Virus record (IMG/VR): IMGVR_UViG_3300045988_181996
DNA length: 64,000 nucleotides
Reading direction: 5' to 3' (one strand)
Source of the DNA: a virus
Of the stretch, positions 11,548 through 45,466 are shown piece after piece. Made by a program: the position numbers and the translations under genes. Under the pieces are notes generated by a model. It ran no database searches, was not told the DNA's origin, and worked only from the letters and a program-made list of their open reading frames with translations. Position 1 is the first letter of the stretch. Every line of letters starts with the position of its first letter.

Positions 11548-11814
11548 TTAAACCTTCAAATTAATTGATTCTAAAAATTCATAATCTTCTTTACTTAATT
11601 TAATTACTTCACCATTATCATTAACTAATGTCGCATTTTCATAAAAAGAATCATATTCTAATTTAAAAATTTGAGGTTTATATTTACTTATATTTTCATT
11701 TACATATTTATATTCTTTTGGAAGTTTATCAATTACAACTGCTACATAAAACATACTCAAATGTGTATATTTTATGATCCTATCATTAAATTTTTGAAAT
11801 TCTTTCTGCTTCAA
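11548..11814 (-). CDS. hypothetical 88-aa protein upstream of flotillin (possible short NfeD-like partner)
   Basis: Position immediately 5' of the SPFH gene. Weak similarity only. Confidence 0.35.
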   Translation of the reverse strand: MKQKEFQKFNDRIIKYTHLSMFYVAVVIDKLPKEYKYVNENISKYKPQIFKLEYDSFYENATLVNDNGEVIKLSKEDYEFLESINLKV

Positions 11815-11923
11815 CCCGTCTGATTTTGTCGTAAAAATGAATAATCATCATTACTGACTACTTTCATTTGATGTGACGATCCACAGACTTAACTTTCCGT
11901 ATAACCCACGGTAGTGACAATAT

Positions 11924-13102
11924 TTATACTGTAGTCAAAACAGTGTAGTTTTGACATTGTTCTAAGTTTAGAGATGCGTTTATATCTCGGTCGTGAACAA
12001 CGCTACATTTTGGACATGTCCAAGTACGTTCTTTTAATTTTAACTCTGTGTTTTTATACCCACAACAAGAACATAACTTGCTAGAAGGGTAGAAACGTGG
12101 AGCTAAACGTAGTTCAATCCCTAGTTTTTCACATTGGTTAGTTAAGAACAATCTTGACATATACCATTGTGCATTGGAAATTGTTTTAGATAAATGTTTA
12201 TTTTTCATTAGACTTTTTATATTCAAGTCTTCAATAGTTATAAAACTTGGTTTTTGTTTCATAATTGATTGTAGAGCTTTTTGATTATAATCAGTTCTAA
12301 TTCTTGTTATTCTTTCATAAAGTTTATTAACAAGTCTTTGATTTTTATTTAAATTTTTACATTCTCTCAAAGGGCGATTCCAATTAAAACTTTTTAATTG
12401 TCCTTTTTTCTTTCCTGTCTTGTAATAAACTTTATTAATCATGTTGTGTTCATATTTACGTGACAATGCACGTTGTTTTTGTTTTAACTTTTTCTCAAGT
12501 TTTATAACTCGTTTTGATTTGTTAATAGACGGTATCGTTTCATTTTTTGTAATGAATTGGTTTTTTATTCCAAAATCAATACCTATACCATGTGTAGAGG
12601 TAACGGTTTGTTTGATATTCACTTCATCAGTTAAACAAGAAACAAAGTAACGTCCATTTTTCATAGAAACAGTGACAGATTTAACATTATTCGGTATATA
12701 ACCAAATTCTTTTAATCGAACCCATTTTAGTTTAGGTAAAAAAATACGATGTCTTTCAACTTTTATTGTACCAATTAAATAGAAACTATTATTTTTTGAT
12801 TTCTTTTTAAAATTTGGTTTTCCTTTTTTACCATTTAAATAATCCCACATTGCTTTATGACCGTTCATTATTGCTTGTTTTATAGCTTTACTAGGTGACT
12901 TAATTAACCAATCAGGTCTATTTGGATCGTTATTTATCATCTTTGAATAATCATATCCTGAGATAATAGGTTGATTATTTTCTAAACGTTTAAAATTATA
13001 ACTGATAAATTGATTATAAATGTATCTAGTATTACCAAACGTTTGATGTATTAAATTAATTTGTTCTTTATTGGGTTTGATTTCTGTCTTGTAAGCTTTC
13101 AT
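11924..13102 (-). CDS. tnpB: second, divergent IS200/IS605-family TnpB, 392 aa
   Basis: 'RFYPSSKLCSCCGYKNTELKLKERTWTCPKCSVVHDRDINASLNL' zinc finger. 'ITIEDLNIKSLMKNKHLSK' RuvC-II-like. No tnpA. Confidence 0.85.
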   Translation of the reverse strand: MKAYKTEIKPNKEQINLIHQTFGNTRYIYNQFISYNFKRLENNQPIISGYDYSKMINNDPNRPDWLIKSPSKAIKQAIMNGHKAMWDYLNGKKGKPNFKKKSKNNSFYLIGTIKVERHRIFLPKLKWVRLKEFGYIPNNVKSVTVSMKNGRYFVSCLTDEVNIKQTVTSTHGIGIDFGIKNQFITKNETIPSINKSKRVIKLEKKLKQKQRALSRKYEHNMINKVYYKTGKKKGQLKSFNWNRPLRECKNLNKNQRLVNKLYERITRIRTDYNQKALQSIMKQKPSFITIEDLNIKSLMKNKHLSKTISNAQWYMSRLFLTNQCEKLGIELRLAPRFYPSSKLCSCCGYKNTELKLKERTWTCPKCSVVHDRDINASLNLEQCQNYTVLTTV

Positions 13103-13800: not shown

Positions 13801-14388
13801 TTAAAATACTCGAACTCCCATTAATGAATCTTCAGTAAAATTACCTACTGCACGGGAGTCTTGACTTACATCTCTATTATCACCTAATACAAAATAATGT
13901 CCTTCTGGTACAATAGTATCAAAATTAACAGTTTTAAATAGATGAATATTATTTTCATCTAAATATTTTTCTTCATATTTTACATTATTTACATATAAAA
14001 CACCGTCTATTACTGTTACTCTATCTCCTGGTAACCCGATTACACGTTTAACAATGTTTTTACTCTCACCACCATCAACTAATCGTTCTTTAAATACTGC
14101 TATATCAAATCTATCCACTCGCTCTTTTTTTAATAACATGTACTCACCATCTTTTAATGTTGGTAACATTGACGGACCGTCTACTTTAACTAATGTAAAA
14201 TTTATTCTAAATAACATTACAATCATGATAATTACTAAAAATACTGTAACATCTTTAACAGGTGAATGTAATTTTTTATGGTTATATATACTAACTTCAC
14301 TTTCATCAACACCCATAGCTTCTGCTAATTCTTTATTACGCTTTTTTAAATATTCATCATCTTTTTTATATCTATCAAAAATACCCAA
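13801..14388 (-). CDS. lepB: type I signal peptidase (SipS/LepB family), 195 aa
   Basis: Boxes 'GPSMLPTL', 'KRVIGLPGDRV', 'YFVLGDNRDVSQDSR' with catalytic Ser/Lys context. Confidence 0.85.
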   Translation of the reverse strand: MGIFDRYKKDDEYLKKRNKELAEAMGVDESEVSIYNHKKLHSPVKDVTVFLVIIMIVMLFRINFTLVKVDGPSMLPTLKDGEYMLLKKERVDRFDIAVFKERLVDGGESKNIVKRVIGLPGDRVTVIDGVLYVNNVKYEEKYLDENNIHLFKTVNFDTIVPEGHYFVLGDNRDVSQDSRAVGNFTEDSLMGVRVF

Positions 14389-15836: not shown

Positions 15837-16610
15837 CTAAAAGAAATCATTTAAATTAGCATTTGCTTTTATTTTTTTTAACTGTTTTTCAATTTTCTTA
15901 TCTTTTTGCTTTATCTCATTAATTTTATTTTTCAAATTACTTGAATGAATCTCTACATCACTTAAATTAACGGATTTAGCAGTTTTCTTTGTCGATGTTT
16001 GTTTTTCTTGTTTTTCTTCTACATCTTTTTTTTGTGGTTTTTTCTTAACAGTTTTTTCAGTATTCGTTGTTGAAACCACTTCGTTTGATTTTTTAGACTG
16101 CTTTTTAGCTGTTGTCTTCTTTGGTTTTTCTTCTTTTTTTACCGTTTCTTTTTTCTCAGTTGTTTCGCTAATTTTACCAAATTCATTATCGATTTTAATT
16201 TTTATTTTTATTAAATGTGCCAAGGCTATATTTGCATTCTCACTTTGATTTAATATTAACTTAAAAATTTCAGAATGTGTTAATTTTTTACGTACAGTAG
16301 AATCATTAATATAATTAATAATTTCATCAGGTATTCCTTTAAAACGATACGAAAATGGTTTATCTATTTCTATATAATTAAAATTATCAGAATAACTATT
16401 ATAAAGTGCAATTGTTTGATTAATTGTTAAACCATATGTTGTACCTGTATTATATAGTAATTTTAACACATCACAATAAAATGAACTCAATCCATAACGA
16501 CAACTTTTCTTTAGTTGATCAATTTGACCAAATTTCGTATTTATATTATAATATAATGTTTTGTTCATTATAAAGATCCTTTCTTTTTTACTATGTTCAT
16601 ATTTTAACAT
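15837..16610 (-). CDS. putative plasmid replication initiator (basic C-terminus) adjacent to iterons, 257 aa (true start may be Met15, 16568)
   Basis: Gene start abuts the 13-bp iteron array. Lys-rich DNA-binding tail. No family motif recognised, so the call is by context only. Confidence 0.4.
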   Translation of the reverse strand: MLKYEHSKKERIFIMNKTLYYNINTKFGQIDQLKKSCRYGLSSFYCDVLKLLYNTGTTYGLTINQTIALYNSYSDNFNYIEIDKPFSYRFKGIPDEIINYINDSTVRKKLTHSEIFKLILNQSENANIALAHLIKIKIKIDNEFGKISETTEKKETVKKEEKPKKTTAKKQSKKSNEVVSTTNTEKTVKKKPQKKDVEEKQEKQTSTKKTAKSVNLSDVEIHSSNLKNKINEIKQKDKKIEKQLKKIKANANLNDFF

Positions 16611-16644: not shown

Positions 16645-16962
16645 TTGTTACCCTTAGTTGTTCTCCCTAGTTGTTACTCTTAGTTGTTCTCCTTAGTTGT
16701 TACTCTTAGTTGTTCTCCTTAGTTGTTACCCTTAGTTGTTACCCTTAGTTGTTACCCTTAGTTGTTACCCTTAGTTGTTCTCCTTAGTTGTTCTACTTAG
16801 TTGTTCTCACTAGTTGTTCTCCCTAGTTGTTCTACTTAGTTGTTCTACTTAGTTGTTCTCACTAATTGTTCTCCCTAGTTGTTCTCACTAGTTGTTCTAC
16901 TTAGTTGTTCTCACTAGTTGTTCTCCCTAGTTGTTCTCACTAGTTGTTACCCTTAGTTGTTA
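16645..16962. repeat. iteron array 1: ~24 tandem copies of a 13-bp unit YTAGTTGTTMYYC
   Basis: Read directly from the sequence. No unique spacers between units, so not CRISPR. Confidence 0.9.
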
Positions 16963-18210: not shown

Positions 18211-18320
18211 TTACCTGTGGTATTTTATATAAAAAATTACTACCTACGGTATTTTATTTAAAAATTTATTACATCACGTATTTTATTCAAAAAAATAACC
18301 TACAAATGTATTTTCATCAT
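18211..18320. repeat. four ~26-bp direct repeats ACCTRYGGTATTTTATWTAAAAAWTT
   Basis: Seen in sequence, in the non-coding 18.1-19.25 kb region. Confidence 0.7.
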
Positions 18321-18429: not shown

Positions 18430-18542
18430 TCGCTTAGAATATTATCATTCTAGGATTTACTTAATCAGTATTTAATATTATTATTCTAGGTAATATCTAA
18501 CTATCTAAGAATATTACCCTTCTAGGTAATACTTAATTAGGA
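18430..18542. repeat. three ~35-bp direct repeats (..AATATTAYYCTTCTAGGTAATACTTAA..)
   Basis: Seen in sequence. Confidence 0.7.
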
Positions 18543-19155
18543 AAAAATATACTGTACTATTTTTTACTCAAATCGCAAGGAATGTTGCTTCCTTATTTCA
18601 ATTTCTAATTAAGTAGAAATTATAAAACCCTATTAAAAACTTGAAGCGGCAAGATCATCAAAAAAAAAATAAAAAGATAAAAACATTTAAAAAAAATAAT
18701 GACTTAATATATCAAAAAATCTCCTGTTATTAAAATTTACCGATGCAATTTTATTAATTCGATCTTTTAAGTGAACCCCTACCTTTAAAATTCTCACAAC
18801 TAAATTTACCTTTAAAATAACTAATTAAAACATCATCAAAATAACATTTTAGCAAACTCCCTCACAAAAAAAATACAACTAAATAAAAAAATTCCATTCA
18901 AATAAAATTTTTAAGACGCATTTAAACACCCTTCTCGCTTTGATGAAATACTTTCTGGTATAATTGGTCCAAAAAATATTTTACGACGATTCTAGGGGTA
19001 TAGAAATAGCTCCTAGAGGGTGATTCATTATTTTTGTATATAGTATATTTCGGATAATGACATTTTAACAAAATTATTTAATAAACGTCTACATTTGTCG
19101 TTATCTATTTAACCTTCTTATCCTAATTGGTAATAATATATTTATCGCTGCAAAA

Positions 19156-19210
19156 CGTAATTCTACGAATTACTTAAAAATAAGTTAGGCATAGCCTAAA
19201 ACCCTTTAAC
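19156..19210 (+). promoter_or_regulatory. hairpin motif copy 1: CGTAATTCTACGAATTAC + TTAGGCATAGCCTAA + ACCCTTTAAC upstream of the 19252 gene
   Basis: Two palindromes plus a conserved ACCCTTTAA box. Recurs five times before plus-strand genes. Confidence 0.6.
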
Positions 19211-21096: not shown

Positions 21097-21151
21097 CGTA
21101 ATTCTACGAATTACTCAAAAACCAATTAGGCTTCGCCTAATACCCCTTAAC
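21097..21151 (+). promoter_or_regulatory. hairpin motif copy 2: CGTAATTCTACGAATTAC + TTAGGCTTCGCCTAA + TACCCCTTAAC
   Basis: Near-identical to copy 1. Confidence 0.6.
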
Positions 21152-22949: not shown

Positions 22950-23020
22950 TTAACTTGCACCCGCTAATACATACGTATTAGCTGGAAAACCAGTTAAGTT
23001 GCACCTAATACCCTTTAATC
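22950..23020 (+). promoter_or_regulatory. hairpin motif copy 3: TTAACTTGCACC ... GCTAATACATACGTATTAGC ... GTTAAGTTGCACC + TAATACCCTTTAATC
   Basis: 20-bp perfect palindrome flanked by 12-bp direct repeats, then the ACCCTTTAA box. Confidence 0.55.
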
Positions 23021-24506: not shown

Positions 24507-24619
24507 CAAATTTTTCCTACCCTGAAAAAATCCCTTGTGTTTAATCCTTGACCTGAATACGTCTTTAAACTGTTCAATTTTTATTACGTGACAATTATAC
24601 TAATTGTCATAAAAACCAA

Positions 24620-24645
24620 TTAGGCTTTGCCTAACACCCTTTTAA
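24620..24645 (+). promoter_or_regulatory. hairpin motif copy 5: TTAGGCTTTGCCTAA + CACCCTTTTA, preceded by TTGACCTGAATACGTC box at 24549
   Basis: Motif family. TTGACCTGARTAYGTC is also present at 25611. Confidence 0.55.
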
Positions 24646-24685: not shown

Positions 24686-25105
24686 ATGATTAAATTTAAT
24701 ACAATTACAACTACTGGTAACTTAGCAAGCAATATCCGTTTCTACGGAAAAGATAATTCAGCCGCTGAAATCGTTGTTTATGATTCAACTCGTAAAGAAA
24801 CACCTGTTCGTCATACGGCTTTCCTTAAAGACGCAGCACTTAAATCTATCGCTCCTAAATTAGTTAAAGGTGCTTTCGTTGCGATTGAAGGACATTTAGT
24901 TCCTAGACCGTCTACTAAAGAAAATCCTGATAATAACACTGATATTATCGTTGACTCTATCCGTTTCTTAAACAACCCTCTTAAAAATCGTAAACCAGCA
25001 GAAATTCCTGCTCTTAAAGTTGAAGACGACTTTGAAGTAGTTCAAGAAACTCCTGAAGTTCTTGATGAAAAACCTAAAAGAGGTCGTAAAAAAGCTACTA
25101 AATAA
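24686..25105 (+). CDS. ssb: SSB-like OB-fold protein (paralog 2), 139 aa, basic C-tail
   Basis: 'TGNLASN..' and 'LVKGAFVAIEGHLVPR' align to SSB strands. Lacks the acidic tip. Confidence 0.65.
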   Translation: MIKFNTITTTGNLASNIRFYGKDNSAAEIVVYDSTRKETPVRHTAFLKDAALKSIAPKLVKGAFVAIEGHLVPRPSTKENPDNNTDIIVDSIRFLNNPLKNRKPAEIPALKVEDDFEVVQETPEVLDEKPKRGRKKATK

Positions 25106-25286
25106 TAAATAATCTCTTAACAGTACTTAGACTGAGCTCTTACGCTTAGTCTTTGTACTGCACTTTGCTTGTGTGGGTTACTGTGATTTGCACAAGTTGG
25201 TTCAACTCCAACTACAAGCCAATCCTCCTCCTAATGAGGACTATTAACCAAATTAACTTTAACATTAAAAAAAGGTGGACAATTAT

Positions 25287-25687: not shown

Positions 25688-25999
25688 ATGACAATTTTAT
25701 TAACAGGACACATCTCAAGAAAAGAAACAGCAGTTGCTAAAACAGGGAAAGTTGCTTTCAACCAAGTTGCTTGTACTAACATCTATACTAAAAAAGACGG
25801 TACTCAAGTTGAAGATACTCAATTCATTAACTTCGCTATCCCTTCTAAATTCGAAAAACTTTGGAAACACCTTGATAAAGGTCAATTAGTTACTGTTGTT
25901 GCTCACATCGAACAATGGAAATCTACTAATGAAAAAGGTGAAAATCGCTATACTCAAATGGTTGTAGCTGACTCTATCGGGTTAGGCTCTGCTAAATAA
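25688..25999 (+). CDS. ssb: SSB-like OB-fold protein (paralog 3), 103 aa, no C-terminal tail
   Basis: 'TQFINFAIPSKFEKLWKHLDKGQLVTVVAHIEQ' vs SSB '[33 protein letters not shown]'. Confidence 0.7.
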   Translation: MTILLTGHISRKETAVAKTGKVAFNQVACTNIYTKKDGTQVEDTQFINFAIPSKFEKLWKHLDKGQLVTVVAHIEQWKSTNEKGENRYTQMVVADSIGLGSAK

Positions 26000-26005
26000 T
26001 TTATT

Positions 26006-26036
26006 AAAGACCACTATAAGTGGTCTTTTTTATTTT
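26006..26036 (+). terminator. rho-independent terminator AGACCACtataaGTGGTCT + T6
   Basis: 7-bp stem plus T-run directly after ssb3. Confidence 0.75.
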
Positions 26037-26233
26037 ACGGAAATCCTACGTATTTCCTACGGTGGTGACATGGCTTCGCATTAATGTCACGCTTAAAAAA
26101 AACAGTTACCCTTATCTTATTTATTTAATGGTGTAACTGTTTTTTTTATTTGTACAATTAACTCCGTTAATTGTTTTATTAAATTGCAATAGCCTACGCC
26201 TATTGCTATTATTTAAAATAATTATTCAAATTT

Positions 26234-26472
26234 GTTACCCTTAGTTGTTCTCCCTAGTTGTTACCACCAGTTGTTACCCTTAGTTGTTACCACTAGTTGT
26301 TACCACTAGTTGTTCTCCCTAGTTGTTCCCCCTAATTGTCACTCTTAGTTGTTCTCCCTAGTTGTTCCCCCTAATTGTTACTACTAGTTGTTACTACTAG
26401 TTGTTACCCTTAGTTGTTACCACTAGTTGTTACTACTAGTTGTTACCCTTAGTTGTTACCACTAGTTGTTAC
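26234..26472. repeat. iteron array 2: ~18 tandem copies of the same 13-bp YTAGTTGTTMYYC unit as array 1
   Basis: Seen in sequence. Same orientation as array 1, 9.3 kb away. Confidence 0.9.
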
Positions 26473-26564
26473 TTCACTTTGCTTTACCTATTAAAAAACT
26501 ATATTTGATTAAAAATATTTCGATCTCGATACCAAAATATACTTTATTATTAACATTAACTATA

Positions 26565-26690
26565 TCTCTTATATAAATCAATTATATTAATCTCTTATAT
26601 AAACACATTATATAAACACCTTATATAAAAACCTTATATAATCACTATATAAACACCTTATATTAACACCTTATATTAATCAAATTCATA
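26565..26690. repeat. second iteron family: ~9 copies of ~12-bp (C)ACCTTATATAAA(C) preceded by an AT-rich stretch
   Basis: Seen in sequence. Confidence 0.8.
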
Positions 26691-26824
26691 AACACCTTTA
26701 AAAAAAACGCAATTCCTACGTAATTGCTTATATTGGTTCGTGGCTTCGCATTAACTCACTTCCTGATTCATTACTTGAATCAGTCTTCGGTCAAACTCGT
26801 CTCAAACTCCTTTGACATAAGGAA

Positions 26825-27047
26825 CTCCCCCCCCTTTTTTGTTAATAATTATATGAAATTTATTTTGTTGAAAAGTATTAGTTGAGTGTTAGTTGAAATT
26901 ATTTGAAAAAATATTATATCGGGAAATTATATAGATGATTTCTAAAAATAATTTATGGGCAAATTTTATTTGAGGGAATTATTATATGAATATATTATGT
27001 CCATTATTTTTTATTCCCTCAATTTATTTTTTTAATAGGGGGGGAGT
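26825..27047. repeat. element bounded by inverted ACTC8 / G7AGT homopolymer repeats with an inner TTGAGGGAAT/ATTCCCTCAA inverted repeat
   Basis: C8 at 26827-26834 and G7 at 27038-27044, in ~27% GC DNA. Confidence 0.6.
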
Positions 27048-27250
27048 AAAAGAGCATAAGAGAAAATATAATTCAAATTAACTAAAATCCTTATTATAAA
27101 ACAAATATATTATATATCAAAAATCAACTATTTTTTTTAATATTTAAAATGAATTTTAATATAAATATAAAAAAATAACCTACACATTAAATATAATATG
27201 TAAGTTATTTTATAAATTTAATATTTATAATTTTTATGGTTTATAAATTT

Positions 27251-38294: not shown

Positions 38295-41200
38295 TTATTT
38301 AATTGCATTTAATAATTCAGTAATAAAATTATAAGATTTATTTTTCTTTAATTCAGTTGATTTTGTATCAATTTTTTCATCTTGTTTGATTTTTGGTTTG
38401 TCTTCTGATTTTATTTCTGTTTTAGTTTCAACTTTTTTATCTGTTAGTTTATAAACAATAGCTGTATAATATGTATCATTTTTAATAATTTCAACAGGGT
38501 TATTTTCAAAACCTAAATCTTTTAATTTCGCTTTTACTTCAGCTTCTGAATTTAATGTATAGAAATTATATTTTACTTTAACTTCTTTAACTTTATCAGT
38601 ATTTACTGCTGTTTGAGTTGCTTGTCCTTTTATATTATTGTACTTAACAATAAAATGATTATCGCTATCTAATGATACATTCACAATACTAGTTGGAGCA
38701 ATACCACGATTTACAGTATATTCAATAGCTTCAGCTTCTGTTGTAATAGTTGATTTGTAAATTTTAAGAGTACTAAATTTACTATCATCTAATTTATTCT
38801 CAACTTCTTTATCTGATTTTTCAATTAATGAAACAATTGCTTTTGAATGAGTTTCTTGTACTGATTTCAATTTATTTATATCGTTTGTAACATTACTAAA
38901 AGCTTTATTAGCTTCAACAACAATTTTTCTTATTGATAAAGTATTTTGCGAAATATTTTTGGAATTTGTTTCAATTGCTTTATCTTGTTCAGCATCTTTT
39001 TGTGCTTGTTTTTCTGTATTTTTATTATATTTCTCCACAAGCTCATTTAAACGTTTCTCAAGCAACGCTTTAGCATTTTCTGATGTATTAGTTGTTACTG
39101 TTGTTGAATCAAAATCTACACCATTAATAACCTCTTTAAACACATTTGTAACACCTTGTGTTTGTGTTAAACGCTTAGCTTGGAAAAATGTATCAACTTG
39201 AAATTCTGTATTTTCAAAATCTATTGAATCCATAAAATCTTGATCAAATTGTAATTTCACACGAGTTATTTTACTATCGTGACCTTCAGTAATACCTGTT
39301 TCAGTATTTACATCTTTTGAAACATTTCTTTCAATTACTTGTGTTGTATATTTTGTTATATCAGTATTAACAGGCATCACACCATTAGTACGTTTATATC
39401 GTTCATATAATGCTGTACCTTTTTTAAATTTAATTTCTTTACCTGATTCCACAAAATATTTACCATCATATTCATCAGCTTCATGGAATTCGTCTGTTAT
39501 TTCATATGTTTCAAGACGTACATTTTTTGGTAATGTAGTTCCTTTAGCTCTATATTGGAAATATGTACCTTCTTCAATACTTGATTTCTCATTAGCTTTT
39601 AAATCAAGAGAAGCTAAATTACTTCTTGAAATAACAGCATCTTTACGAGGATCGATTTTTGGAACATCATTTGTTACTTCATTTGATTTATAAATATTAC
39701 CAAAATCATCTTGATAAAACACATTGCTATACGTATTACCGTTATATCCCCCATTAGGATTTACAACTTTTTTAGTTGTCATTGGAATATTTATTTTTAA
39801 ATTCTTACCTTTTTCTACATATTCTTTATAATATGGGTGATCATATCCTTGAATAGATACTCTCACAGCTTTACCTTCACGTTCAATACCTTCCACTTTA
39901 TCTATTAAAGACCAAGTTAATCCTTCTATTACCTTATTATCTGTACCTTTAAATGTACCATCAGCTTGACCAGTAGCAATAACTTTATCACCATCTTTTA
40001 ATGTAACTGGACCAGTAAAGTCTACTGCTTCAAATGGTGCTAAATCATATGCATGTAAACCTTTTGCTTGCATTTCTTTATCAATGTTAACACCTTTATA
40101 TTGGTCAAAATCCCATGTTAACTCGAAATTATTAACTGTACCTGGTAATAATGTTTTACCATCAATTACAACACCTTTATTATCTTTATTATGTTTTTCA
40201 GGTTCAGGAGAAGTTGTTTTAATTGTTATTGATTTATTCTCAACAAGATATTCATCGTTGATAATAGTATCGAAACCTACTTGAACTTCTTTATTATCTT
40301 CTGTTAATTTAAACTTAATACTTGGTATTTCATATTTAAATTCATCTTTCATTGAACCACTAATATGACCATTATTAACATTTTGTTTTTTGTTAACTTC
40401 CACAAGATAACGTGATGTAGCAGAGTAAGTTAATTTACGAGTTTTTTCATTATAATCAACATTCCAATAATCTGTTGATTGAACTTGTTCTTTATTAAAT
40501 TCAACACCTTCAGGTAAAGTTATAGTTGAAATAATATTATGAATTTTATCAAATCTACCTTCTGGTAGCTTTTCATTATCAATATTTAATTTAATAATTT
40601 GATTTTTCATAGCCTGAACAGTTTTATAAGTTCCATTAGCTTGTATTTCAATTATTTCATCATCAACATTATTAACTTTACTAGTACTACTTGGAGTAGA
40701 ACGAATATCGTATAAATGATATGATACTGTCGGTTTTTCGATTACTTTGTTTTGTGACGCTTCATATGTGTAAATTTTTACTGGTTTAACAGCTTCTTCA
40801 ACTAATTTACTATCAACTGATAATGTATATAGTTTAAAAGTAGGTGTATCTGTAACCGTACCAGCTTTAACTGCTTCAACATGTTTTTGTAAAGCATCAT
40901 AAGATTTTTTAATTTGTTCTTTATATTTATTAATATCTTCAATTGAACTTACTCTAACTGTTTCTTTTTCTAATTTAATAGTTCCTTGACTAGCTTGTGT
41001 CTGAAACATAACATATGAATTTTGTAATCTATCAAAATCAGCAATCCCTGATTTAGTTTCACTATAAATTTTAGCAGTTTTAACTGCTGCATCTAATTTA
41101 GTTTTATCAGCTTCAAATTCAGATTTATCAAAAACTTTAGTTTCACTAATTGTAGTTGCACCATATGTTGATAAATTATTATTATAAGCTGTCATTACTG

Positions 41201-41573
41201 CATTAGCACTTGTAACATCAGACTGCGAAGATGAACCAGTTTTATTAGCCGATTCTAAATCCTTTTCATATTGATCCATTGCTTTAATGATTTCTTTTTG
41301 TTTACTTAAATAATATTCTTTAGCTTCAGCAATATTCTTTCTAGTTTCTTCAGCATTACCTGTTAAAATTTTAGTATCTTCTCTAGTTATTGTAATACCT
41401 TTAGCTGTAGCATTACGAATAGTATCATCTAAATGTGAATGATCAACATGAACATCTAAATGTCCAACACTTTCTTGGTCATAATTTTCAGTATCAGCAG
41501 ACGCTACACCAACTGATAAAGCTGACATAGGAGCTAATACACTTAATAATTGTTTTTTATTTAAAACTGTCAT
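38295..41573 (-). CDS. large secreted surface protein 1092 aa (signal peptide, no LPXTG)
   Basis: Signal peptide 'LLSVLAPMSALSVGVASA'. Ser/Thr/Asn-rich. C-terminal KxE repeats. Confidence 0.6.
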   Translation of the reverse strand: MTVLNKKQLLSVLAPMSALSVGVASADTENYDQESVGHLDVHVDHSHLDDTIRNATAKGITITREDTKILTGNAEETRKNIAEAKEYYLSKQKEIIKAMDQYEKDLESANKTGSSSQSDVTSANAVMTAYNNNLSTYGATTISETKVFDKSEFEADKTKLDAAVKTAKIYSETKSGIADFDRLQNSYVMFQTQASQGTIKLEKETVRVSSIEDINKYKEQIKKSYDALQKHVEAVKAGTVTDTPTFKLYTLSVDSKLVEEAVKPVKIYTYEASQNKVIEKPTVSYHLYDIRSTPSSTSKVNNVDDEIIEIQANGTYKTVQAMKNQIIKLNIDNEKLPEGRFDKIHNIISTITLPEGVEFNKEQVQSTDYWNVDYNEKTRKLTYSATSRYLVEVNKKQNVNNGHISGSMKDEFKYEIPSIKFKLTEDNKEVQVGFDTIINDEYLVENKSITIKTTSPEPEKHNKDNKGVVIDGKTLLPGTVNNFELTWDFDQYKGVNIDKEMQAKGLHAYDLAPFEAVDFTGPVTLKDGDKVIATGQADGTFKGTDNKVIEGLTWSLIDKVEGIEREGKAVRVSIQGYDHPYYKEYVEKGKNLKINIPMTTKKVVNPNGGYNGNTYSNVFYQDDFGNIYKSNEVTNDVPKIDPRKDAVISRSNLASLDLKANEKSSIEEGTYFQYRAKGTTLPKNVRLETYEITDEFHEADEYDGKYFVESGKEIKFKKGTALYERYKRTNGVMPVNTDITKYTTQVIERNVSKDVNTETGITEGHDSKITRVKLQFDQDFMDSIDFENTEFQVDTFFQAKRLTQTQGVTNVFKEVINGVDFDSTTVTTNTSENAKALLEKRLNELVEKYNKNTEKQAQKDAEQDKAIETNSKNISQNTLSIRKIVVEANKAFSNVTNDINKLKSVQETHSKAIVSLIEKSDKEVENKLDDSKFSTLKIYKSTITTEAEAIEYTVNRGIAPTSIVNVSLDSDNHFIVKYNNIKGQATQTAVNTDKVKEVKVKYNFYTLNSEAEVKAKLKDLGFENNPVEIIKNDTYYTAIVYKLTDKKVETKTEIKSEDKPKIKQDEKIDTKSTELKKNKSYNFITELLNAIK

Positions 41574-41683: not shown

Positions 41684-44600
41684 TTAATTTTTTGCTTCCG
41701 ATTCACTATCTAATCTTCGTTTAATTTCATTAAATAATAATTTATGATTAACAACAATATCATTAAGTTCATCAGGTTTGACTAATACATCCGTTACAAA
41801 TATATCTAAATCACGATGTGTTTGTTTAGCTACAAGCTGTCCACCAATATATACATCTCGTTCTTTTGGATTTTTGACAACACAAGATAAATCTTGAATG
41901 TTAACACCTTTTTCAACAACATCTGTTACCATATCTTCTAATATTTGTAAATGATATGAATTTCTAAAATCATATTCTAATGGAATATTTGGTTTAAATG
42001 TACGTTTATATTCTTCAATTTTATCAGCTTCTTCATAAATATCTACGACTTTTAAATCTTCGATACGTTTTTCTTCTGGGAATTCACGTTTCATTGCTGT
42101 AATAAATTGGAAAACTTTACCAGGTGCATATATAAATGCTCCATTTTCTTTACTATTTGTATTACGGTAAATAGAAGTTAAATTCTCTAATTCTTCATCA
42201 TCTACCAAATCAAATAATAAATCACGTAATTCTAATACAACCAATTCTTTTTCTTCAGGTTTTACATTTGGATTCATTAAAATATTCATTTGTTTATCTA
42301 ACGTATTAGCTATTTCACTGTAAGATTTAACATTACCATCTTTCATTCTTAAATGTTCAGCTTGTTTATCAAATTCCTCATAAACCATATTCATCATATA
42401 ATTTGATAAATCACCATTATTTTCCTTAATTGATAAATTATAATCACTATGTAATTTTAATACTTCATCTTTAATTTTTAAAGAAATTTTCGCTTGTTCG
42501 ACTCTATCATAAACTAATTGTTCAGCATCTATTAAATTATCTTCCAATGTACCAAACGTAGTAGCACGAGTAGTTGGTAAGTTATTTTGTGAATACTGTC
42601 CATCTTTCGGGTTTGGTAATTTACTGTGTAATCGCCATGCACATGGTGTTATATGAGCACCTTTATTAACTATTGGCATATCATTACTTCTAAACACAAT
42701 TCCATTACCAGGTTTATCACCTGCTAAAAATAATAAATCATTTAAAACAAGTGTAGTACTTTCTTCCTGTTGTTTACCATAAGAGATTGTTGGTTCACCA
42801 ACAGTAATTAAATCTGTTGGTTTAACCTGATAGTTTGATGAATTTACTCGAATATTATGTTTAACTCCAGACAACCTAATCATTTCATCTAATAGATTTT
42901 TCTCATTAGATTTTAAGAAAATTGTAATAGCAGAGTTTGAACGTACAACATTCTCAACTTCTTCACCATATAATGAACGTAACTGTTCAAATGATTGTAA
43001 TACGAAAGTATTTTGAATATTTTGTCCTAAACCAATTGATACAATTTTATCTAAGTTCGGAATTCCTTTACCATTATCACTTATATTACCAAACTCATCA
43101 AATAACGTACGTGTTCCAACAATTGGTTTTGTTGTATTTTTAATAACGTATGATAAATCTAAACTTCCATTAAATAATTGGTCAATTATCATCAACGGGT
43201 GTTTTTGATAATGTTGTTTATTCGGAGGTACAATAAAGAATATAACTTTTGGACGTTCAGTATAAAACACTTGTGTAGATAAAATAATAGGTGATTTTAC
43301 AACATCAACTGTTTTTGTTTTAAAGTTTACTTGTTTTTCATTAAATTTTGATAATGATTCTTTACCTGTTTTTAGATCAATTTCAACTAAAAATCCATCT
43401 TTAATAACTTTAGAACCTGTAATTTCATCAATCGCATATGTTATATTATTAACTGTTTTAAAACCTTTAATAAATTTAAAATAAAATGTACGAGCAACTT
43501 TACCATTAGTTTTAATTTCTAATTTTGCATATGAAACAATATCATCTAAAATACCACCCCAATAACACCAAATCCAATTATTCTTTTTAATTTTTTCTTG
43601 GTGTTTGAAATCCTTACCTTCATACGGAACTGTAAATTTAGCATCTTTATAAAATGACCATTCAGCAATTTCACCATAATATTGATATTTTTCCATAAAT
43701 TGTTTATTTAATTCAATACCAAAACGTCTTGGGAAACCTAAACCACTAACATCAAAACTTTCCTCAATAGAACCTGATAATAAAGCTGACGTAGTAGGGT
43801 CAATATAAATAGACATATTTGTTAATAATGATGCATAAACACCTGCTAATGTTTGTTGTGCACCACCAATAGGTCTAATAGATTCATCGGCTTTAATTGC
43901 CAATTCACGCAATTTATTAGACGGTAACGTATTAACAGCATCAAATAATACTGATAATAAATCTTTTTCAGCAACAGGAACAGCTTTAGGATTTACTTTT
44001 AATAATTTATCATCTTTTGTTATTTTACCACATAAACTTGAAATTAATGAGTAAATATTAAACAGTGTAACTTTAGAATATAATTTATTAATTTGTGATG
44101 TTAAGACTTCATTAGGAATATTATTCTTTAATGCCATATAACGTAAATATTTTTCTTGCTCAATAACATAATCAAACAATGTATAAACAGCACGTTTAAA
44201 CATATTCCCAGCAGCTTTATTCCAAATCTCCCCATCATCAGGGAAAATTAAATTCGATAATGCATCAACAAGTGTAGAACCTTTTAACGTATCATTTTGT
44301 CTAAATAATAAAATAGAATTAATTAGTGGGTTAAATACGTTTGTTAAAGAATCTGATAATAAATTAAACTGTATAACTTCATAACCAGACTTTGTAAGAG
44401 AATAATAAAATTTATTTATTAATTCTCCTTTCGGGTCAGTAATAAGTAAATTCCATTTAATTTTACAACGTCTTTGTACATCAATCATAGGTTCAATGTA
44501 TGTTTGTCCTTTACCTGCACGTGTAATTGCTATTAAAATAGTATTTGAAGCAGTACTATCATAAAAATATAAACCAGCAGGTTGTTGTGTATCCGTATCT

Positions 44601-45466
44601 AAAGTATAAAATGTATTATTAATAACATCACTTAATTTATCATATGGACCACGCTCACGAGCAGAGAATTTACGTCTTTTACCATCTCCTCCATCTTTTC
44701 GCTTTATAATAGGGTTGTAATCAAATTCTGTTGTATCGTAATAAAAACGATCATCAACATGAACACCACTTGCATCATACAACGCTTCAGCAAATTCTTT
44801 ACAAAACATAGATGTTTTCTTATAAACAATATTTCCATTTTCATCACGTTTAACATATCCATCAATTCCACTATCATATACAGGTATATTTATTTTATTA
44901 ATACCTCTATTTAATGCAAACATATGTCCAACTAGAGCTGTTACACTATCACTTGGAGAAGGATCAAACCCTAAACCAGCATCAGGAGCAACATTAAAAT
45001 CACGTATCATATCCTCAATATCTTTGATAGATGCATCATTTTCAAATACATGTAAATCTCCTTGAATAAATGGAGCATTTCTTGTATTCCAAAAACCTTT
45101 CAATATATAATGTGATATTTTGTATACTGAAAACCAACCAAAAACCATAATAGCCACATAAACAAGAAAAGCTCCTGAATCAAAAAAGAAACCAACTTGA
45201 TTTTTAGGATTATTAAAATTATGTGACATCATCAAAATAAACTGTATAAAACAACATAGTGCAAGAGGTATAGAAATACCGAAAAATACAGCACCTGGTT
45301 TATAAAATTTCATATCTGGTTTCGTCTTACCATTTTTTTCGACTATCATATTATTGTTTTTTGGGGTTCGTTGTTTTCGTTTACGTTCAATTAATATTTT
45401 ACGCACTGGATTAATTTTATCAACGAAATTCGTGATTGATGATTTATTAAACATATTTATCACCAT
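41684..45466 (-). CDS. type IV coupling protein-like (VirD4/TraG family) ATPase, 1260 aa with long C-terminal extension
   Basis: Two N-terminal TM helices. Degenerate P-loop 'IAITRAGKGQTY'. 'LITDPKGELINKF' box typical of T4CPs. Canonical GxxGxGKT absent. Confidence 0.5.
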   Translation of the reverse strand: MVINMFNKSSITNFVDKINPVRKILIERKRKQRTPKNNNMIVEKNGKTKPDMKFYKPGAVFFGISIPLALCCFIQFILMMSHNFNNPKNQVGFFFDSGAFLVYVAIMVFGWFSVYKISHYILKGFWNTRNAPFIQGDLHVFENDASIKDIEDMIRDFNVAPDAGLGFDPSPSDSVTALVGHMFALNRGINKINIPVYDSGIDGYVKRDENGNIVYKKTSMFCKEFAEALYDASGVHVDDRFYYDTTEFDYNPIIKRKDGGDGKRRKFSARERGPYDKLSDVINNTFYTLDTDTQQPAGLYFYDSTASNTILIAITRAGKGQTYIEPMIDVQRRCKIKWNLLITDPKGELINKFYYSLTKSGYEVIQFNLLSDSLTNVFNPLINSILLFRQNDTLKGSTLVDALSNLIFPDDGEIWNKAAGNMFKRAVYTLFDYVIEQEKYLRYMALKNNIPNEVLTSQINKLYSKVTLFNIYSLISSLCGKITKDDKLLKVNPKAVPVAEKDLLSVLFDAVNTLPSNKLRELAIKADESIRPIGGAQQTLAGVYASLLTNMSIYIDPTTSALLSGSIEESFDVSGLGFPRRFGIELNKQFMEKYQYYGEIAEWSFYKDAKFTVPYEGKDFKHQEKIKKNNWIWCYWGGILDDIVSYAKLEIKTNGKVARTFYFKFIKGFKTVNNITYAIDEITGSKVIKDGFLVEIDLKTGKESLSKFNEKQVNFKTKTVDVVKSPIILSTQVFYTERPKVIFFIVPPNKQHYQKHPLMIIDQLFNGSLDLSYVIKNTTKPIVGTRTLFDEFGNISDNGKGIPNLDKIVSIGLGQNIQNTFVLQSFEQLRSLYGEEVENVVRSNSAITIFLKSNEKNLLDEMIRLSGVKHNIRVNSSNYQVKPTDLITVGEPTISYGKQQEESTTLVLNDLLFLAGDKPGNGIVFRSNDMPIVNKGAHITPCAWRLHSKLPNPKDGQYSQNNLPTTRATTFGTLEDNLIDAEQLVYDRVEQAKISLKIKDEVLKLHSDYNLSIKENNGDLSNYMMNMVYEEFDKQAEHLRMKDGNVKSYSEIANTLDKQMNILMNPNVKPEEKELVVLELRDLLFDLVDDEELENLTSIYRNTNSKENGAFIYAPGKVFQFITAMKREFPEEKRIEDLKVVDIYEEADKIEEYKRTFKPNIPLEYDFRNSYHLQILEDMVTDVVEKGVNIQDLSCVVKNPKERDVYIGGQLVAKQTHRDLDIFVTDVLVKPDELNDIVVNHKLLFNEIKRRLDSESEAKN

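What the first reader, a model, noticed from the sequence alone, without database searches (positions are those of the whole stretch)
26000..26770. Candidate oriV/oriT: paired palindromes with CCTACGT core flanking iterons
GGAAATCCTACGTATTTCC (26042-26060) and GCAATTCCTACGTAATTGC (26711-26729) are both perfect 6-bp-arm palindromes around the same core. Each is followed ~15 bp later by TGGCTTCGCATTAA. They bracket iteron array 2, the ACCTTATATAAA iterons and an AT-rich putative unwinding element. The core ATCCTAC resembles the MOBP nic consensus YATCCTG|Y. The CGTAATTCTACGAATTACG palindromes in the leading region share the AATTC(C)TACG(T)AATT theme.
Basis: partly seen in the sequence, partly recalled or inferred. 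Interest (0 to 1): 0.6.

Follow-up and report, generated by a model that had tools for sequence, protein, structure and literature searches.

The report
Transfer-origin end with strand-specific hairpin signals
The gene-free stretch does belong to the transfer origin of a large, uncharacterised gut Clostridia conjugative element. The likely cutting site is a known 11-base motif 280 bases outside the flagged interval, and the flagged palindromes are copies of a repeated hairpin signal of unknown function.

Summary
The palindromes, the TGGCTTCGCATTAA boxes and the repeat arrays are real and far above chance.

They are not the nick site. The same intergenic region holds one exact copy of 5'-CTTATGCTCTT-3' (27050-27060, minus strand). 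This is the published oriT core of MOB_MG/MOBL plasmids (pWBG749, pHTbeta), and I also found it in pLS20. It is conserved in 33 related loci, and the window encodes a MobL relaxase. The rival site at 34.9-35.3 kb lacks it.

The palindromes are 3 of at least 7 copies of a strand-specific hairpin with variable stem and invariant CTACG loop. The copies are spread through the SSB-rich block at 17-26 kb, mostly about 85 nt upstream of genes. Two are followed, after 13 nt, by a box that reads GCGAAGC on the minus strand. GCGAAGC is a stable DNA mini-hairpin known at single-strand priming sites.

Inferred: the minus strand is transferred, so the flagged interval enters the recipient first. The hairpins would then be single-strand priming or early-expression signals. 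The 13-bp arrays look like protein-binding sites, not Rep iterons. An oriV reading has no support. The polarity and the hairpin function remain untested.

The parts
26006..26028 (+). Intrinsic terminator of the last SSB gene (25688-25999)
   Evidence: 10-bp stem followed by a T run. Conserved in L014, L016 and L017.
26039..26057 (-). Hairpin A copy 1. GGAAAT-CCTACGT-ATTTCC on the plus strand; the loop reads ACGTAGG on the minus strand.
   Evidence: The homologous hairpin in L014 is GGAAATT-CTACG-AATTTCC.
26065..26090 (-). 7-bp stem (GTGACAT/ATGTCAC) enclosing box 1. GGCTTCGCATTA on plus equals TAATGCGAAGCC on minus, which contains the GCGAAGC mini-hairpin.
   Evidence: The stem covaries in L014 and L017 (GTGGTAC/GTACCAC) while the loop is kept. 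GCGAAGC is found only on the minus strand.
26095..26147 (.). Long inverted repeat AAAAAAAACAGTTAC...GTAACTGTTTTTTTT. It looks like a bidirectional terminator.
   Evidence: The counterpart in L014 is AAAACCAGTTAC...GTAACTGGTTTT.
26154..26174 (.). Hairpin ACAATTAAC-tcc-GTTAATTGT
   Evidence: Conserved in L014, L016 and L017.
26186..26206 (-). Hairpin A copy 2, GCAATAG-CCTACGC-CTATTGC.
26232..26472 (.). Array 2: 18.5 tandem 13-bp units, TAGTTGTT plus 5 variable nt
   Evidence: It has the same unit as array 1. The unit differs between related elements. Related contigs break at this array.
26569..26698 (.). About 10 AT-rich 13-bp repeats (CACCTTATATAAA-like), extremely G-poor
   Evidence: GC skew is -0.83.
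26709..26727 (-). Hairpin A copy 3, GCAATT-CCTACGT-AATTGC
   Evidence: The counterpart in L001 and L016 is CGGGCATG-CTACG-CATACCCG, with a changed stem and the same loop.
26741..26760 (-). Box 1 copy 2, TGGCTTCGCATTAACTCAC. The minus strand contains GCGAAGC.
   Evidence: Conserved in L001-3, L008 and L013-19, always in the same orientation.
26824..26833 (.). C-run arm ACTCCCCCCC of a long-range inverted repeat. Its partner is 27038-27047.
   Evidence: The arms covary in L014 (CACCCCTCCC/GGGAGGGGTG) and in L008 (22-nt arms).
27038..27047 (.). G-run arm GGGGGGGAGT, abutting the core. On the minus strand this is the C-rich tract 3' of the core.
   Evidence: A C-rich tract after the core is conserved in all clade members and in pLS20.
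27050..27060 (-). Exact oriT core 5'-CTTATGCTCTT-3' of MOB_MG/MOBL plasmids; presumed nick region
   Evidence: the single exact hit in the window, against 0.02-0.05 expected. Conserved in 33 loci. Published as the oriT core and nic region of pWBG749, pHTbeta and others (PMC4652767).
27093..27120 (-). Near-consensus promoter TTGATA-16-TATAAT pointing through the core
   Evidence: 11 of 12 matches. Equivalent promoters sit 30-70 nt 5' of the core in L043, L047 and L081 (read by eye).
16652..16961 (.). Array 1: 24 tandem 13-bp units of the same family, at the far end of the SSB-rich block, immediately upstream of ORF 15837-16568
   Evidence: The homologous arrangement occurs in L094.
19157..19199 (-). 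Module upstream of ORF 19252: hairpin A (GTAATT-CTACG-AATTAC) plus hairpin B (TTAGGC-ata-GCCTAA)
21098..21141 (-). Module upstream of ORF 21173/21188: hairpin A plus hairpin B. Hairpin B is TTAGGCTTCGCCTAA on plus; the minus strand contains GCGAAGC.
22963..22982 (-). Variant hairpin A, GCTAATAC-ATAC-GTATTAGC (ATACG type)
24585..24635 (-). Variant module upstream of the SSB gene at 24686: GACAATTA-tac-TAATTGTC plus TTAGGC-ttt-GCCTAA
33191..34048 (-). MobL-family relaxase, the presumed enzyme acting on the core
   Evidence: PF18555, E=3e-14. (BLASTP E=1e-7 against the pHTbeta relaxase, including the His triad)..

Best explanation
The 1.25-kb gene-free stretch between the last SSB gene and the topoisomerase gene is the transfer-origin end of a large conjugative element of uncultured Clostridia.

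Shown:
- The stretch contains one exact copy of CTTATGCTCTT (27050-27060, minus strand). This is the oriT core of the relaxase family that the window itself encodes (MobL/MOB_MG).
- The core is conserved in place across relatives whose topoisomerases are only 37-81% identical.
The stem sequence is free and the pentaloop is fixed: CTACG on the plus strand, CGTAG on the minus strand.
- Two copies carry, 13 nt away, a box that reads GCGAAGC on the minus strand.

Inferred:
- The relaxase nicks the minus strand in the core, and that strand is transferred 5' to 3' leftwards.
- The flagged interval (26000-26770) is then the first ~1 kb to enter the recipient, followed by the SSB-rich block at 26-17 kb. 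The transferred strand is the template strand of the genes in that block.
- On the incoming single strand, the CGTAG hairpins and GCGAAGC mini-hairpins resist SSB coating. They would serve as entry points for primer synthesis and/or early transcription. Synthesis from them would run rightwards across the adjacent promoter and gene.
- The three gene-less copies would convert the repeat array and the origin-proximal DNA to duplex.
- The 13-bp arrays, one at each end of the block, are binding sites for an element-specific protein. The candidate is the product of 15837-16568. They are not Rep iterons.
For: Core:
- One exact hit in the window against 0.02-0.05 expected.
- Present in 33 fetched loci.
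- Published as the conserved oriT core, with nic delimited to CCTTATGCTCTTACGG.
- Present in pHTbeta upstream of its relaxase operon and in pLS20 oriT.

Relaxase and coupling protein:
- PF18555 MobL, homologous to the pHTbeta relaxase.
- MOBL explicitly includes the pHTbeta and pGL5 relaxases.
- The coupling protein is of the same CD1115 family as in pHTbeta.

Hairpins:
- 5 in the window against 0.12 expected, all in one orientation.
- 29 distinct instances against 3 weak ones on the other strand across the clade.
- Every hairpin in L004, L014-L023 and L094 has the same orientation relative to the core and the genes.
- All 7 stem pairs show compensatory changes while the loop is invariant.
- Stem mismatches are A.C on the plus strand, equal to G.T on the minus strand, 6 times against 1. 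This suggests the minus strand folds.

GCGAAGC:
- 3 of 3 on the minus strand in the window, and 3 of 3 on the core strand in each L014-lineage locus.
- This motif occurs at the G4 origin, RSF1010 ssiA and N4 promoters.

Leading-region character:
- 3 SSB paralogues in the window and 5 in L004, plus many small ORFs, all pointing at the core.
Against: - No nicking or transfer data exist for this element.
- The branched hairpin that precedes the core in pHTbeta (z=-5.5) and pLS20 (z=-2.5) is absent here (z=+1.3).
- The core lies 6 kb from the relaxase gene rather than in its upstream region.
- In pLS20 the only biochemical nick mapping in the family placed the nick 40 nt from the core on the opposite strand. 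That would make the plus strand the transferred one.
- Genes converge on the core from both sides, so the 'template strand' argument fits either polarity.
- The hairpin loop matches no known primase or ssoA consensus.
- The hairpins could act in RNA or as part of ordinary promoters.
- The covariation set was selected for pairing, so its pairing percentage is circular.
- The array-binding protein is unidentified. The structure model was unusable (pLDDT 40.6).
Confidence: 0.6

Rival explanations
1. The CCTACGT palindromes with the downstream box are the relaxase recognition hairpin and nick site, so oriT lies inside 26000-26770.
For: A hairpin followed at a fixed 13-nt distance by a conserved box resembles the usual arrangement of an inverted repeat 5' of nic. 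The box is conserved in relatives with 52-81% topoisomerase identity. CTACG also occurs in the nick loop of pMV158-type rolling-circle origins (my own recollection, not checked).
Against: - The same hairpin recurs upstream of genes at 19.1, 21.1, 22.9 and 24.6 kb, and dozens of times in relatives.
- Box 1 is confined to the close clade, whereas the family core CTTATGCTCTT is conserved far more widely and matches the encoded relaxase family.
- ATCCTAC is not conserved.
- pHTbeta has no such hairpins.
Confidence: 0.07
2. Iteron-type vegetative origin (oriV). The 13-bp arrays are Rep-binding iterons and the AT-rich block is the unwinding element.
For: There are tandem direct repeats next to an AT-rich, strongly strand-skewed segment. 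The repeat unit is element-specific. A second array sits upstream of an uncharacterised, probably autoregulated gene, which could be a copy-control arrangement.
Against: - No recognisable rep gene lies beside the interval. Pfam and NCBIfam scans of the ORFs tested gave none, but many stayed unassigned.
- No DnaA box with up to 1 mismatch occurs in 26000-27250.
- GC skew keeps one sign over all 64 kb.
- Arrays of 18-47 copies of 13 bp are unlike typical iterons, which are a few copies of 17-22 bp (general knowledge).
- In distant relatives, short repeats directly abut the oriT core (L021, L053).
Confidence: 0.08
3. Opposite polarity. The plus strand (AAGAGCATAAG strand) is nicked, as mapped in pLS20. 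The topoisomerase-relaxase block then enters first and the flagged interval is the trailing end. Its hairpins and arrays would serve relaxosome assembly or termination.
For: [quoted passage not shown]
- In all loci the genes on that side point towards the core, so that strand would always be their template.
- Sequence conservation extends from the core into the G-rich tract on that strand.
Against: - In pWBG749, DNA downstream of the core is dispensable and recombination junctions fall inside the core. The pLS20 nick position therefore cannot be general.
- pHTbeta and pLS20 have their hairpins 5' of CTTATGCTCTT on that strand.
- The hairpin mismatches and the GCGAAGC motifs point to the minus strand being the folded one.
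- The SSB-rich small-ORF block is typical leading-region content (PMC11541004, listed, abstract only).
Confidence: 0.25
4. The hairpin modules act in transcription rather than on transferred single-stranded DNA. They could be 5'-leader or intercistronic RNA structures, or terminators of antisense transcripts. The arrays would be a partition centromere or a silencer of the block.
For: - Modules sit about 85 nt upstream of start codons, next to a -10-like hexamer.
- Hairpin B plus a T run scores as an intrinsic terminator on the minus strand.
- A strong minus-strand promoter reads through the core into this region.
- pLS20-family plasmids have repeated regulatory sequences upstream of establishment genes.
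- Array 1 lies on the promoter of its neighbouring operon.
Against: - Three copies, those of the finding, have no gene downstream.
- The mismatch pattern disfavours folding of the sense RNA.
- A fixed loop with free stems is not how a double-stranded operator evolves.
- No partition NTPase was detected in the window.
Confidence: 0.25

Closest known systems
oriT of pWBG749 / pHTbeta / pMG2200 / pGL5 / pMC189 (MOB_MG relaxases; O'Brien et al. 2015, PMC4652767)
   Same: The 11-bp core CTTATGCTCTT is identical. The relaxase is of the same Pfam family (MobL). The coupling protein is of the same CD1115 family. Element-specific repeats lie near the core.
   Different: The core is 6 kb from the relaxase gene, behind a topoisomerase gene, not in the relaxase operon's upstream region. 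No branched hairpin lies 5' of the core. No RHH accessory protein was identified. The long repeat arrays lie 3' of the core, not 5'.
oriT of pLS20 (MOBL prototype; Ramachandran et al. 2017, PMC5313138)
   Same: pLS20 carries the same core, followed by a C-rich tract as in the window clade. The relaxase family is the same.
   Different: pLS20 oriT lies directly upstream of aux1-aux2-rel and is strongly structured on both sides of the core. Its published nick is 40 nt from the core on the other strand.
Single-strand initiation signals and single-strand promoters of leading regions (F Frpo/ssi, ColIb-P9; G4-type origins; RSF1010 ssiA)
   Same: Orientation-dependent hairpins sit on the presumed transferred strand, upstream of leading-region genes. 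A GCGNAGC-type mini-hairpin is present, as at the G4 origin and ssiA.
   Different: The hairpins are much shorter than Frpo (which I recall, unchecked, as a stem-loop of roughly 300 nt). No -35/-10 pair is rebuilt in a stem. The loop sequence CGTAG matches no described signal. There is no functional evidence.
Establishment-gene regulatory sequences (EGeRS1/2) of pLS20-family plasmids (PMC8708921, PMC6294495)
   Same: Repeated non-coding modules precede each establishment or anti-defence operon in MOBL-type Gram-positive conjugative plasmids.
   Different: EGeRS1 elements are 325-600 nt with many inverted repeats. Here the module is about 45-80 nt with one fixed pentaloop. No sequence similarity was tested.
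Plasmid-specific direct repeats beside oriT (pAD1/pAM373 oriT2 short direct repeats; R388 stbDRs bound by StbA). From my own knowledge, not checked here.
   Same: Arrays of short, element-specific direct repeats lie next to a conserved nick region or at the start of the leading region.
   Different: The repeat numbers (18-47) and the paired arrays 9.5 kb apart are unusual. The binding protein is unknown.

Membership tests
MOB_MG/MOBL-type oriT (pWBG749, pHTbeta) | 11-bp core 5'-CTTATGCTCTT-3' | tested here: met
   Exact match at 27050-27060 (minus strand), the only one in the window. Expected 0.02-0.05. Definition.
MOB_MG/MOBL-type oriT (pWBG749, pHTbeta) | Cognate relaxase of the MobL/MOB_MG family encoded on the same element | tested here: met
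   ORF 33191-34048 is PF18555, E=3e-14. BLASTP against the pHTbeta relaxase gives E=1e-7 with the His triad aligned. The pHTbeta relaxase is PF18555, E=1e-48.
MOB_MG/MOBL-type oriT (pWBG749, pHTbeta) | Branched hairpin (IR1-IR3) immediately 5' of the core on the core strand | tested here: not met
   For the 70 nt 5' of the core: window MFE -0.2 kcal/mol, z=+1.3. pHTbeta z=-5.5 and pLS20 z=-2.5. A longer 216-nt fold gave z=-1.3.
MOB_MG/MOBL-type oriT (pWBG749, pHTbeta) | Located in the nearest non-coding DNA upstream of the accessory-factor and relaxase genes | tested here: not met
   The core is 6.1 kb from the relaxase gene, downstream of the topoisomerase gene. The region upstream of the relaxase operon (34846-35590) has TGGACA repeats but no core.
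MOB_MG/MOBL-type oriT (pWBG749, pHTbeta) | Ribbon-helix-helix specificity factor (SmpO-like) binding 5' of the core | not tested
   Neither the 264-aa ORF upstream of the relaxase gene (34051-34845) nor the 147-aa ORF at 35591-36034 has a significant family hit. No binding sites were identified.
MOB_MG/MOBL-type oriT (pWBG749, pHTbeta) | Confers mobilisation; nicked by the relaxase | not testable with these tools
   Needs mating assays and in vitro cleavage.
MOBP-type nic site (YATCCTG|Y) | Conserved nick consensus next to an inverted repeat | tested here: not met
   Only 26039-26057 contains ATCCTAC (5 of 7 positions). The other copies and the relatives have TTCCTAC, AGCCTAC, TTCTACG, TGCTACG or GTCTACG.
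Iteron-type oriV | rep gene adjacent to the iterons | tested here: not met
   The neighbours are an SSB gene and a topoisomerase gene. Pfam and NCBIfam scans of the window ORFs tested gave no Rep family, though many ORFs stayed unassigned.
Iteron-type oriV | DnaA boxes / strand-asymmetry switch at the origin | tested here: not met
   No TTATCCACA with up to 1 mismatch in 26000-27250. GC skew is negative in every 2-kb bin of the window. The only sign change is a local 250-bp one next to the core.
Single-strand origin / ssi / single-strand promoter | Orientation-specific hairpin structures maintained by compensatory change | tested here: met
   29 instances against 3 by orientation. All 7 stem pairs show double changes and the loop is invariant (instances were pre-selected for pairing). 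5 observed against 0.12 expected.
Single-strand origin / ssi / single-strand promoter | Known consensus elements (ssoA RSB/CS-6; -35/-10 rebuilt in the Frpo stem) | tested here: not met
   The loops read CGTAG or CTACG, not the CS-6 sequence as I recall it (TAGCGT, unchecked). Stems of 6-8 bp cannot hold a -35/-10 pair. No Rfam family matches.
Single-strand origin / ssi / single-strand promoter | Primer or transcript synthesis on single-stranded template | not testable with these tools
   Needs in vitro priming or transcription on single-stranded clones.
Partition centromere (parC/tubC-like array) | Tandem repeats on the promoter of an operon encoding the binding protein and a partition NTPase | tested here: inconclusive
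   Array 1 abuts the promoter of ORF 15837-16568, and its homologue in L094 has the same arrangement. No ParA, ParM or TubZ was found in the window. The structure model of the candidate binder was unusable.

The most novel reading that the evidence does not exclude
The stem-CGTAG-stem hairpins, with or without the GCGAAGC mini-hairpin, are a new class of signal read on the transferred single strand of Gram-positive conjugative elements. Placed upstream of each leading-region gene and beside the nick site, they would recruit a primase or RNA polymerase. Each gene would then be made double-stranded, or transcribed, within moments of entry. This would be a compact functional counterpart of Frpo/ssi, which has not been described in Firmicutes as far as my literature searches showed.
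Probability: 0.3. Interest if true: 0.75.

Novelty: new variant of a known kind. Interest (0 to 1): 0.5.

Why it matters
The element belongs to a large family of 90-320 kb conjugative elements of uncultured gut Clostridia. The family has no counterpart in the plasmid database searched.

Recognising the MOB_MG/MOBL core gives a testable nick site and an inferred direction of transfer for the whole family. The same core also turns out to be present in pLS20. The nick published for pLS20 lies elsewhere and on the other strand, so the polarity of MOBL transfer deserves a direct test.

How Gram-positive elements start complementary-strand synthesis and early gene expression after entry is poorly understood. 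A short hairpin with a fixed pentaloop, repeated in one orientation upstream of each leading-region gene, is a concrete and easily mutated candidate signal.

Tried and rejected
- DNA similarity to PLSDB plasmids (near and distant modes): no match.
- The first GTDB genome scan with the single topoisomerase protein found nothing. The second, with an alignment, found one rabbit-gut Clostridia MAG.
- Rfam: nothing real in the region. No tRNA genes.
- MOBP-like nick idea (ATCCTAC): rejected because it is not conserved.
- dif/Xer-like reading of the core region: rejected. Only the TTATG half-site resembles dif, and the other arm is not conserved.
- oriT at 34.9-35.3 kb: the TGGACA repeats are conserved in L001 and L008, but there is no core. 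This is more likely an operator/promoter region of the relaxase operon.
- Small ORFs in 26000-27250: none credible.
- Firmicute DnaG 'CTA' start-site idea (recalled, unchecked): CTA lies on the plus strand, not on the strand inferred to be single-stranded, so it is not used.
- Array-binding protein: the homologue search found only clade-internal relatives without domains. The PDB sequence search found nothing. The AlphaFold model had pLDDT 40.6, so no fold search was run.
- Local hairpins flanking the core on either strand in the window clade: not significant.
Full report
**Setting**

The window is AT-rich (about 27% GC) and encodes a Gram-positive conjugation system.
- A MobL relaxase lies at 33191-34048 on the minus strand (PF18555).
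- A VirD4-like coupling protein of the CD1115 family lies at 41684-45466.
- Other genes include a type IA topoisomerase (27251-29695), a ClpB-like ATPase, a DUF5906 primase/helicase-like protein, LPXTG and antigen I/II adhesins, and a SecA paralogue.
- From 17 to 26 kb all genes are on the plus strand. They are small and mostly unknown, and include three SSB paralogues and an RNase H-like protein.
- The flagged interval lies in the 1.25-kb gap where this block meets the minus-strand topoisomerase gene head to tail. The genes converge on it.
- Nothing similar exists in PLSDB.
- The topoisomerase has hundreds of metagenomic relatives on contigs of 90-320 kb.
- The only hit in GTDB species genomes is an uncultured Clostridia MAG from rabbit gut.

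**Checking the observation**

Both palindromes, both boxes and the arrays exist.
- The true coordinates are 26039-26057 and 26709-26727 for the palindromes, and 26071-26084 and 26741-26754 for the boxes. The gap between palindrome and box is 13 nt in both cases.
- A third palindrome of the same kind, GCAATAG-CCTACGC-CTATTGC, lies at 26186-26206.
- The left box sits in the loop of a 7-bp stem (26065-26090).
- The leading-region palindrome is CGTAATTCTACGAATTACT at 19155 and 21096.
- CCTACG occurs 9 times on the plus strand and never on the minus strand.
- Strict stem-CTACG-stem hairpins number 5 on the plus strand and 0 on the minus strand. A simulation gives a mean of 0.12.

**Related elements**

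I fetched 92 related loci through the topoisomerase.
- In relatives with 80-82% topoisomerase identity (L014-L019), 52% (L008) and 47% (L004, L020, L023), the same architecture recurs. It runs: SSB gene(s), terminator, hairpins, a 13-bp tandem array, more hairpins, topoisomerase gene.
- The array unit changes between elements: TAGTTGTTACCCT here, CGTTCTACCCTAT-like in L014, TAGTTCGTTATCT x47 in L008, and TATACTT-based in L004.
- Several contigs end inside the array, which is an assembly break.
- The hairpin stems also change, but the loop does not. GCAATT-CCTACGT-AATTGC here corresponds to CGGGCATG-CTACG-CATACCCG in L001 and L016.
- The stem around the left box changes from GTGACAT/ATGTCAC to GTGGTAC/GTACCAC, while the loop GCTTCGCATTA is kept.

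**The conserved core**

Searching all loci for conserved words showed two different depths of conservation.
- A second word, AAGAGCATAAG preceded by a G-rich tract (window 27038-27060), is conserved much more deeply. It occurs in loci whose topoisomerases are only 37-44% identical and whose gene order differs.
- A full-text search for this word and its complement returned O'Brien et al. 2015. In that paper 5'-CTTATGCTCTT-3' is the 'oriT core' shared by pWBG749, pMG2200, pMC189, pHTbeta and pGL5.
- Clones lacking the core are not mobilised. DNA downstream of the core is dispensable. Relaxase-mediated recombination junctions delimit nic to CCTTATGCTCTTACGG.
- The relaxases of pHTbeta and pGL5 are listed as MOBL members by Ramachandran et al..
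- pHTbeta's relaxase is a strong PF18555 hit and aligns with the window relaxase across the histidine triad.
- I confirmed the core in pHTbeta at 30574, 115 nt upstream of its relaxosome operon.
- In the window the core occurs once, on the minus strand at 27050-27060. It does not occur in the 34.9-35.3 kb region. The expected number of exact hits is 0.02-0.05.
- This is the strongest single piece of evidence.

**How this oriT departs from the known ones**

- The 70 nt 5' of the core fold into a branched double hairpin in pHTbeta (z=-5.5) and pLS20 (z=-2.5). In the window (z=+1.3) and most clade members they do not. The other flank is not significantly structured either.
- The core is 6 kb from the relaxase gene.
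- What the clade does have is a C-rich tract directly 3' of the core on the core strand. This tract pairs with a G-run 120-330 nt further on, and the arms covary: ACTCCCCCCC/GGGGGGGAGT here, CACCCCTCCC/GGGAGGGGTG in L014, and 22-nt arms in L008.
- A near-consensus promoter on the core strand reads through the core.

**pLS20 and the polarity problem**

- pLS20 itself turned out to carry the exact core followed by a similar C-rich tract (L096 2464-2474).
- Its published nick, after GAATCGGGGGCCGG, lies 40 nt further on and on the opposite strand.
- The two literature data sets therefore disagree about the nicked strand. In the pWBG749 work the strand was inferred, not measured.
- In the window the genes converge on the core from both sides. 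Either polarity therefore makes the transferred strand a template strand.
- I favour the minus strand, at about 65%, for four reasons. The hairpin-then-core geometry holds in pHTbeta and pLS20. Sequence downstream of the core is dispensable in pWBG749. The SSB-rich small-ORF content of the 17-26 kb block is typical of a leading region. The evidence below suggests that the minus strand is the one that folds.

**What the palindromes are**

- A scan for hairpins with (C/A)TACG at the tip found them at 19157, 21098, 22963, 26039, 26186 and 26709, all in the same orientation.
- In relatives there are 9 in L004, 6-7 in L014, 5 in L020 and 8 in L023. Every one is on the same strand as the core, and the same holds in L094.
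- Across the clade there are 29 distinct instances, against 3 weak ones on the other strand.
- Stems differ freely (AAATT, CTAAGT, ATAGTT, GATTTTC and others) while the pentaloop is invariant. All seven stem positions show compensatory double changes. The instances were chosen for pairing, so the pairing percentage itself is circular.
- Stem mismatches are A.C or C.A on the plus strand six times, which equals G.T on the minus strand. G.T on the plus strand occurs once. This is weak evidence that the minus strand is the folding strand.
- A fixed loop with free stems is the signature of a folded single strand, not of a double-stranded operator.

**The module around each hairpin**

- Most copies belong to a composite module upstream of a gene (a variant at 24585-24635). 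It runs: hairpin A, 5-25 nt, a second hairpin (TTAGGC...GCCTAA or TTAAGG...CCTTAA), ACCC, a TATAAT-like hexamer, TTTTGAAAA, ribosome-binding site, ATG.
- The three copies in the finding have no gene downstream.
That heptamer occurs three times in the window, all on the minus strand. It occurs three times in each L014-lineage locus, all on the core strand.
- GCGNAGC is the 'extraordinarily stable' DNA mini-hairpin. A 2026 review places such motifs at the G4 complementary-strand origin, in RSF1010 ssiA and in N4 virion-polymerase promoters, and reports poor SSB binding to them.
- pHTbeta has no CGTAG hairpins. The module is therefore a feature of this uncultured clade, not of MOBL plasmids in general.

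**Mechanism proposed (inferred)**

- The relaxase nicks the minus strand in the core.
- The strand enters 5' first, so 27050 to 26000 arrives first, then the SSB block.
- Complementary-strand synthesis and transcription both read this strand rightwards.
- A start signal at each hairpin A would therefore convert, or transcribe, exactly the promoter and gene that follow it.
- The gene-less copies would do the same for array 2 and for the origin-proximal DNA.
The loop matches no consensus I know.

**Arrays**

- Array 2 (26232-26472) and array 1 (16652-16961) share the TAGTTGTT unit and bracket the plus-strand block.
- Array 1 abuts the promoter of ORF 15837-16568. The homologue of that ORF in L094 has the same arrangement, with a TTGACA-17-TATAAT promoter.
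- That protein has relatives only in this clade, no domain hits and no usable structure model.
- In distant relatives, short repeats abut the core directly (L021, L053).
- This points to an element-specific DNA-binding protein acting as an accessory or specificity factor, a positioning protein, or a silencer of the block.
- It does not point to Rep iterons. There is no rep gene among the recognisable ORFs, no DnaA box, and no skew switch beyond a 250-bp local one next to the core.

**Verdict**

The oriT reading is right for the region but wrong for the motifs. The oriV reading is unsupported. The oriT is a new variant of a known kind. The repeated pentaloop hairpin is the part that would interest a specialist, and it remains unproven.

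Noticed in passing
L096 (pLS20, NC_015148) 2464-2474; published nick at about 2514: pLS20 oriT carries the exact CTTATGCTCTT core plus a C-rich tract. The published nick lies 40 nt away on the opposite strand. The full-text search found the core word in only one bacterial-plasmid (oriT) paper, on pWBG749 (the other hits were unrelated); the pLS20 papers did not come up.
   Followed up: partly
window 34980-35270: TGGACA(A) repeats lie upstream of the 264-aa + relaxase operon. There are three direct copies and three inverted copies, plus a duplicated ATAGATGTACCAAG. They are conserved in L001 and L008. This is probably an operator/promoter region. It has no oriT core.
   Followed up: partly
window 11803-11887 (minus) and 11924-13102; 38-1276: A RAGATH-18 RNA (69 bits) lies beside an IS605-family TnpB gene. 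A second TnpB gene sits at the window start. No TnpA is present.
   Followed up: no
L055 8477 and 17937; L084 8664 and 19015: Two same-strand oriT cores lie 9.5-10 kb apart and bracket the topoisomerase and coupling-protein genes. Same-strand pairs were reported to be absent from staphylococcal plasmids because the relaxase deletes the DNA between them.
   Followed up: no
L004, about 12880 (window orientation: ...CACCCCCTCCTCTTATGCTCAC...): A 9-of-11 copy of the core lies in inverted orientation about 330 bp from the main core. The window has only a vestige at 26811-26834.
   Followed up: no
window 27093-27120 (minus); L043, L047, L081 equivalents: A strong sigma-A-type promoter on the core strand, 30-70 nt upstream, reads through the oriT core. 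It is conserved across distant lineages.
   Followed up: partly
window 25190-25215; L004 near the module at rc 8082: tRNA-like T-arm fragments (GGTTCAACTCC; GGGTTCAAATCCCAC) occur in intergenic DNA of the SSB block. ARAGORN finds no tRNA.
   Followed up: no
window 18212-18294 and 18438-18550: Two repeat sets occur in a 1.1-kb gene-free stretch at the far end of the block. One has 29-bp units containing mini TACC-TAC-GGTA hairpins. The other has 36-bp units (TTCTAGG).
   Followed up: no
window 23311, 24686, 25688; L004 13833-18415: There are three SSB paralogues in the window and five in L004. Most copies seen are preceded by a hairpin module.
   Followed up: partly
L091 1858-5116: The coupling-protein gene is interrupted by a group II intron-type reverse transcriptase.
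   Followed up: no
window 48738-51074, 13801-14388, 38295-41573, 45607-47739: The element carries its own SecA paralogue, a signal peptidase, an antigen I/II-type adhesin and an LPXTG protein. This may be an accessory secretion route for its surface proteins.
   Followed up: no
L010/L011 12697-14288: In another lineage an actin-like (ALP/ParM) partition operon lies directly behind the topoisomerase gene, followed by a 1.2-kb gene-free region.
   Followed up: no
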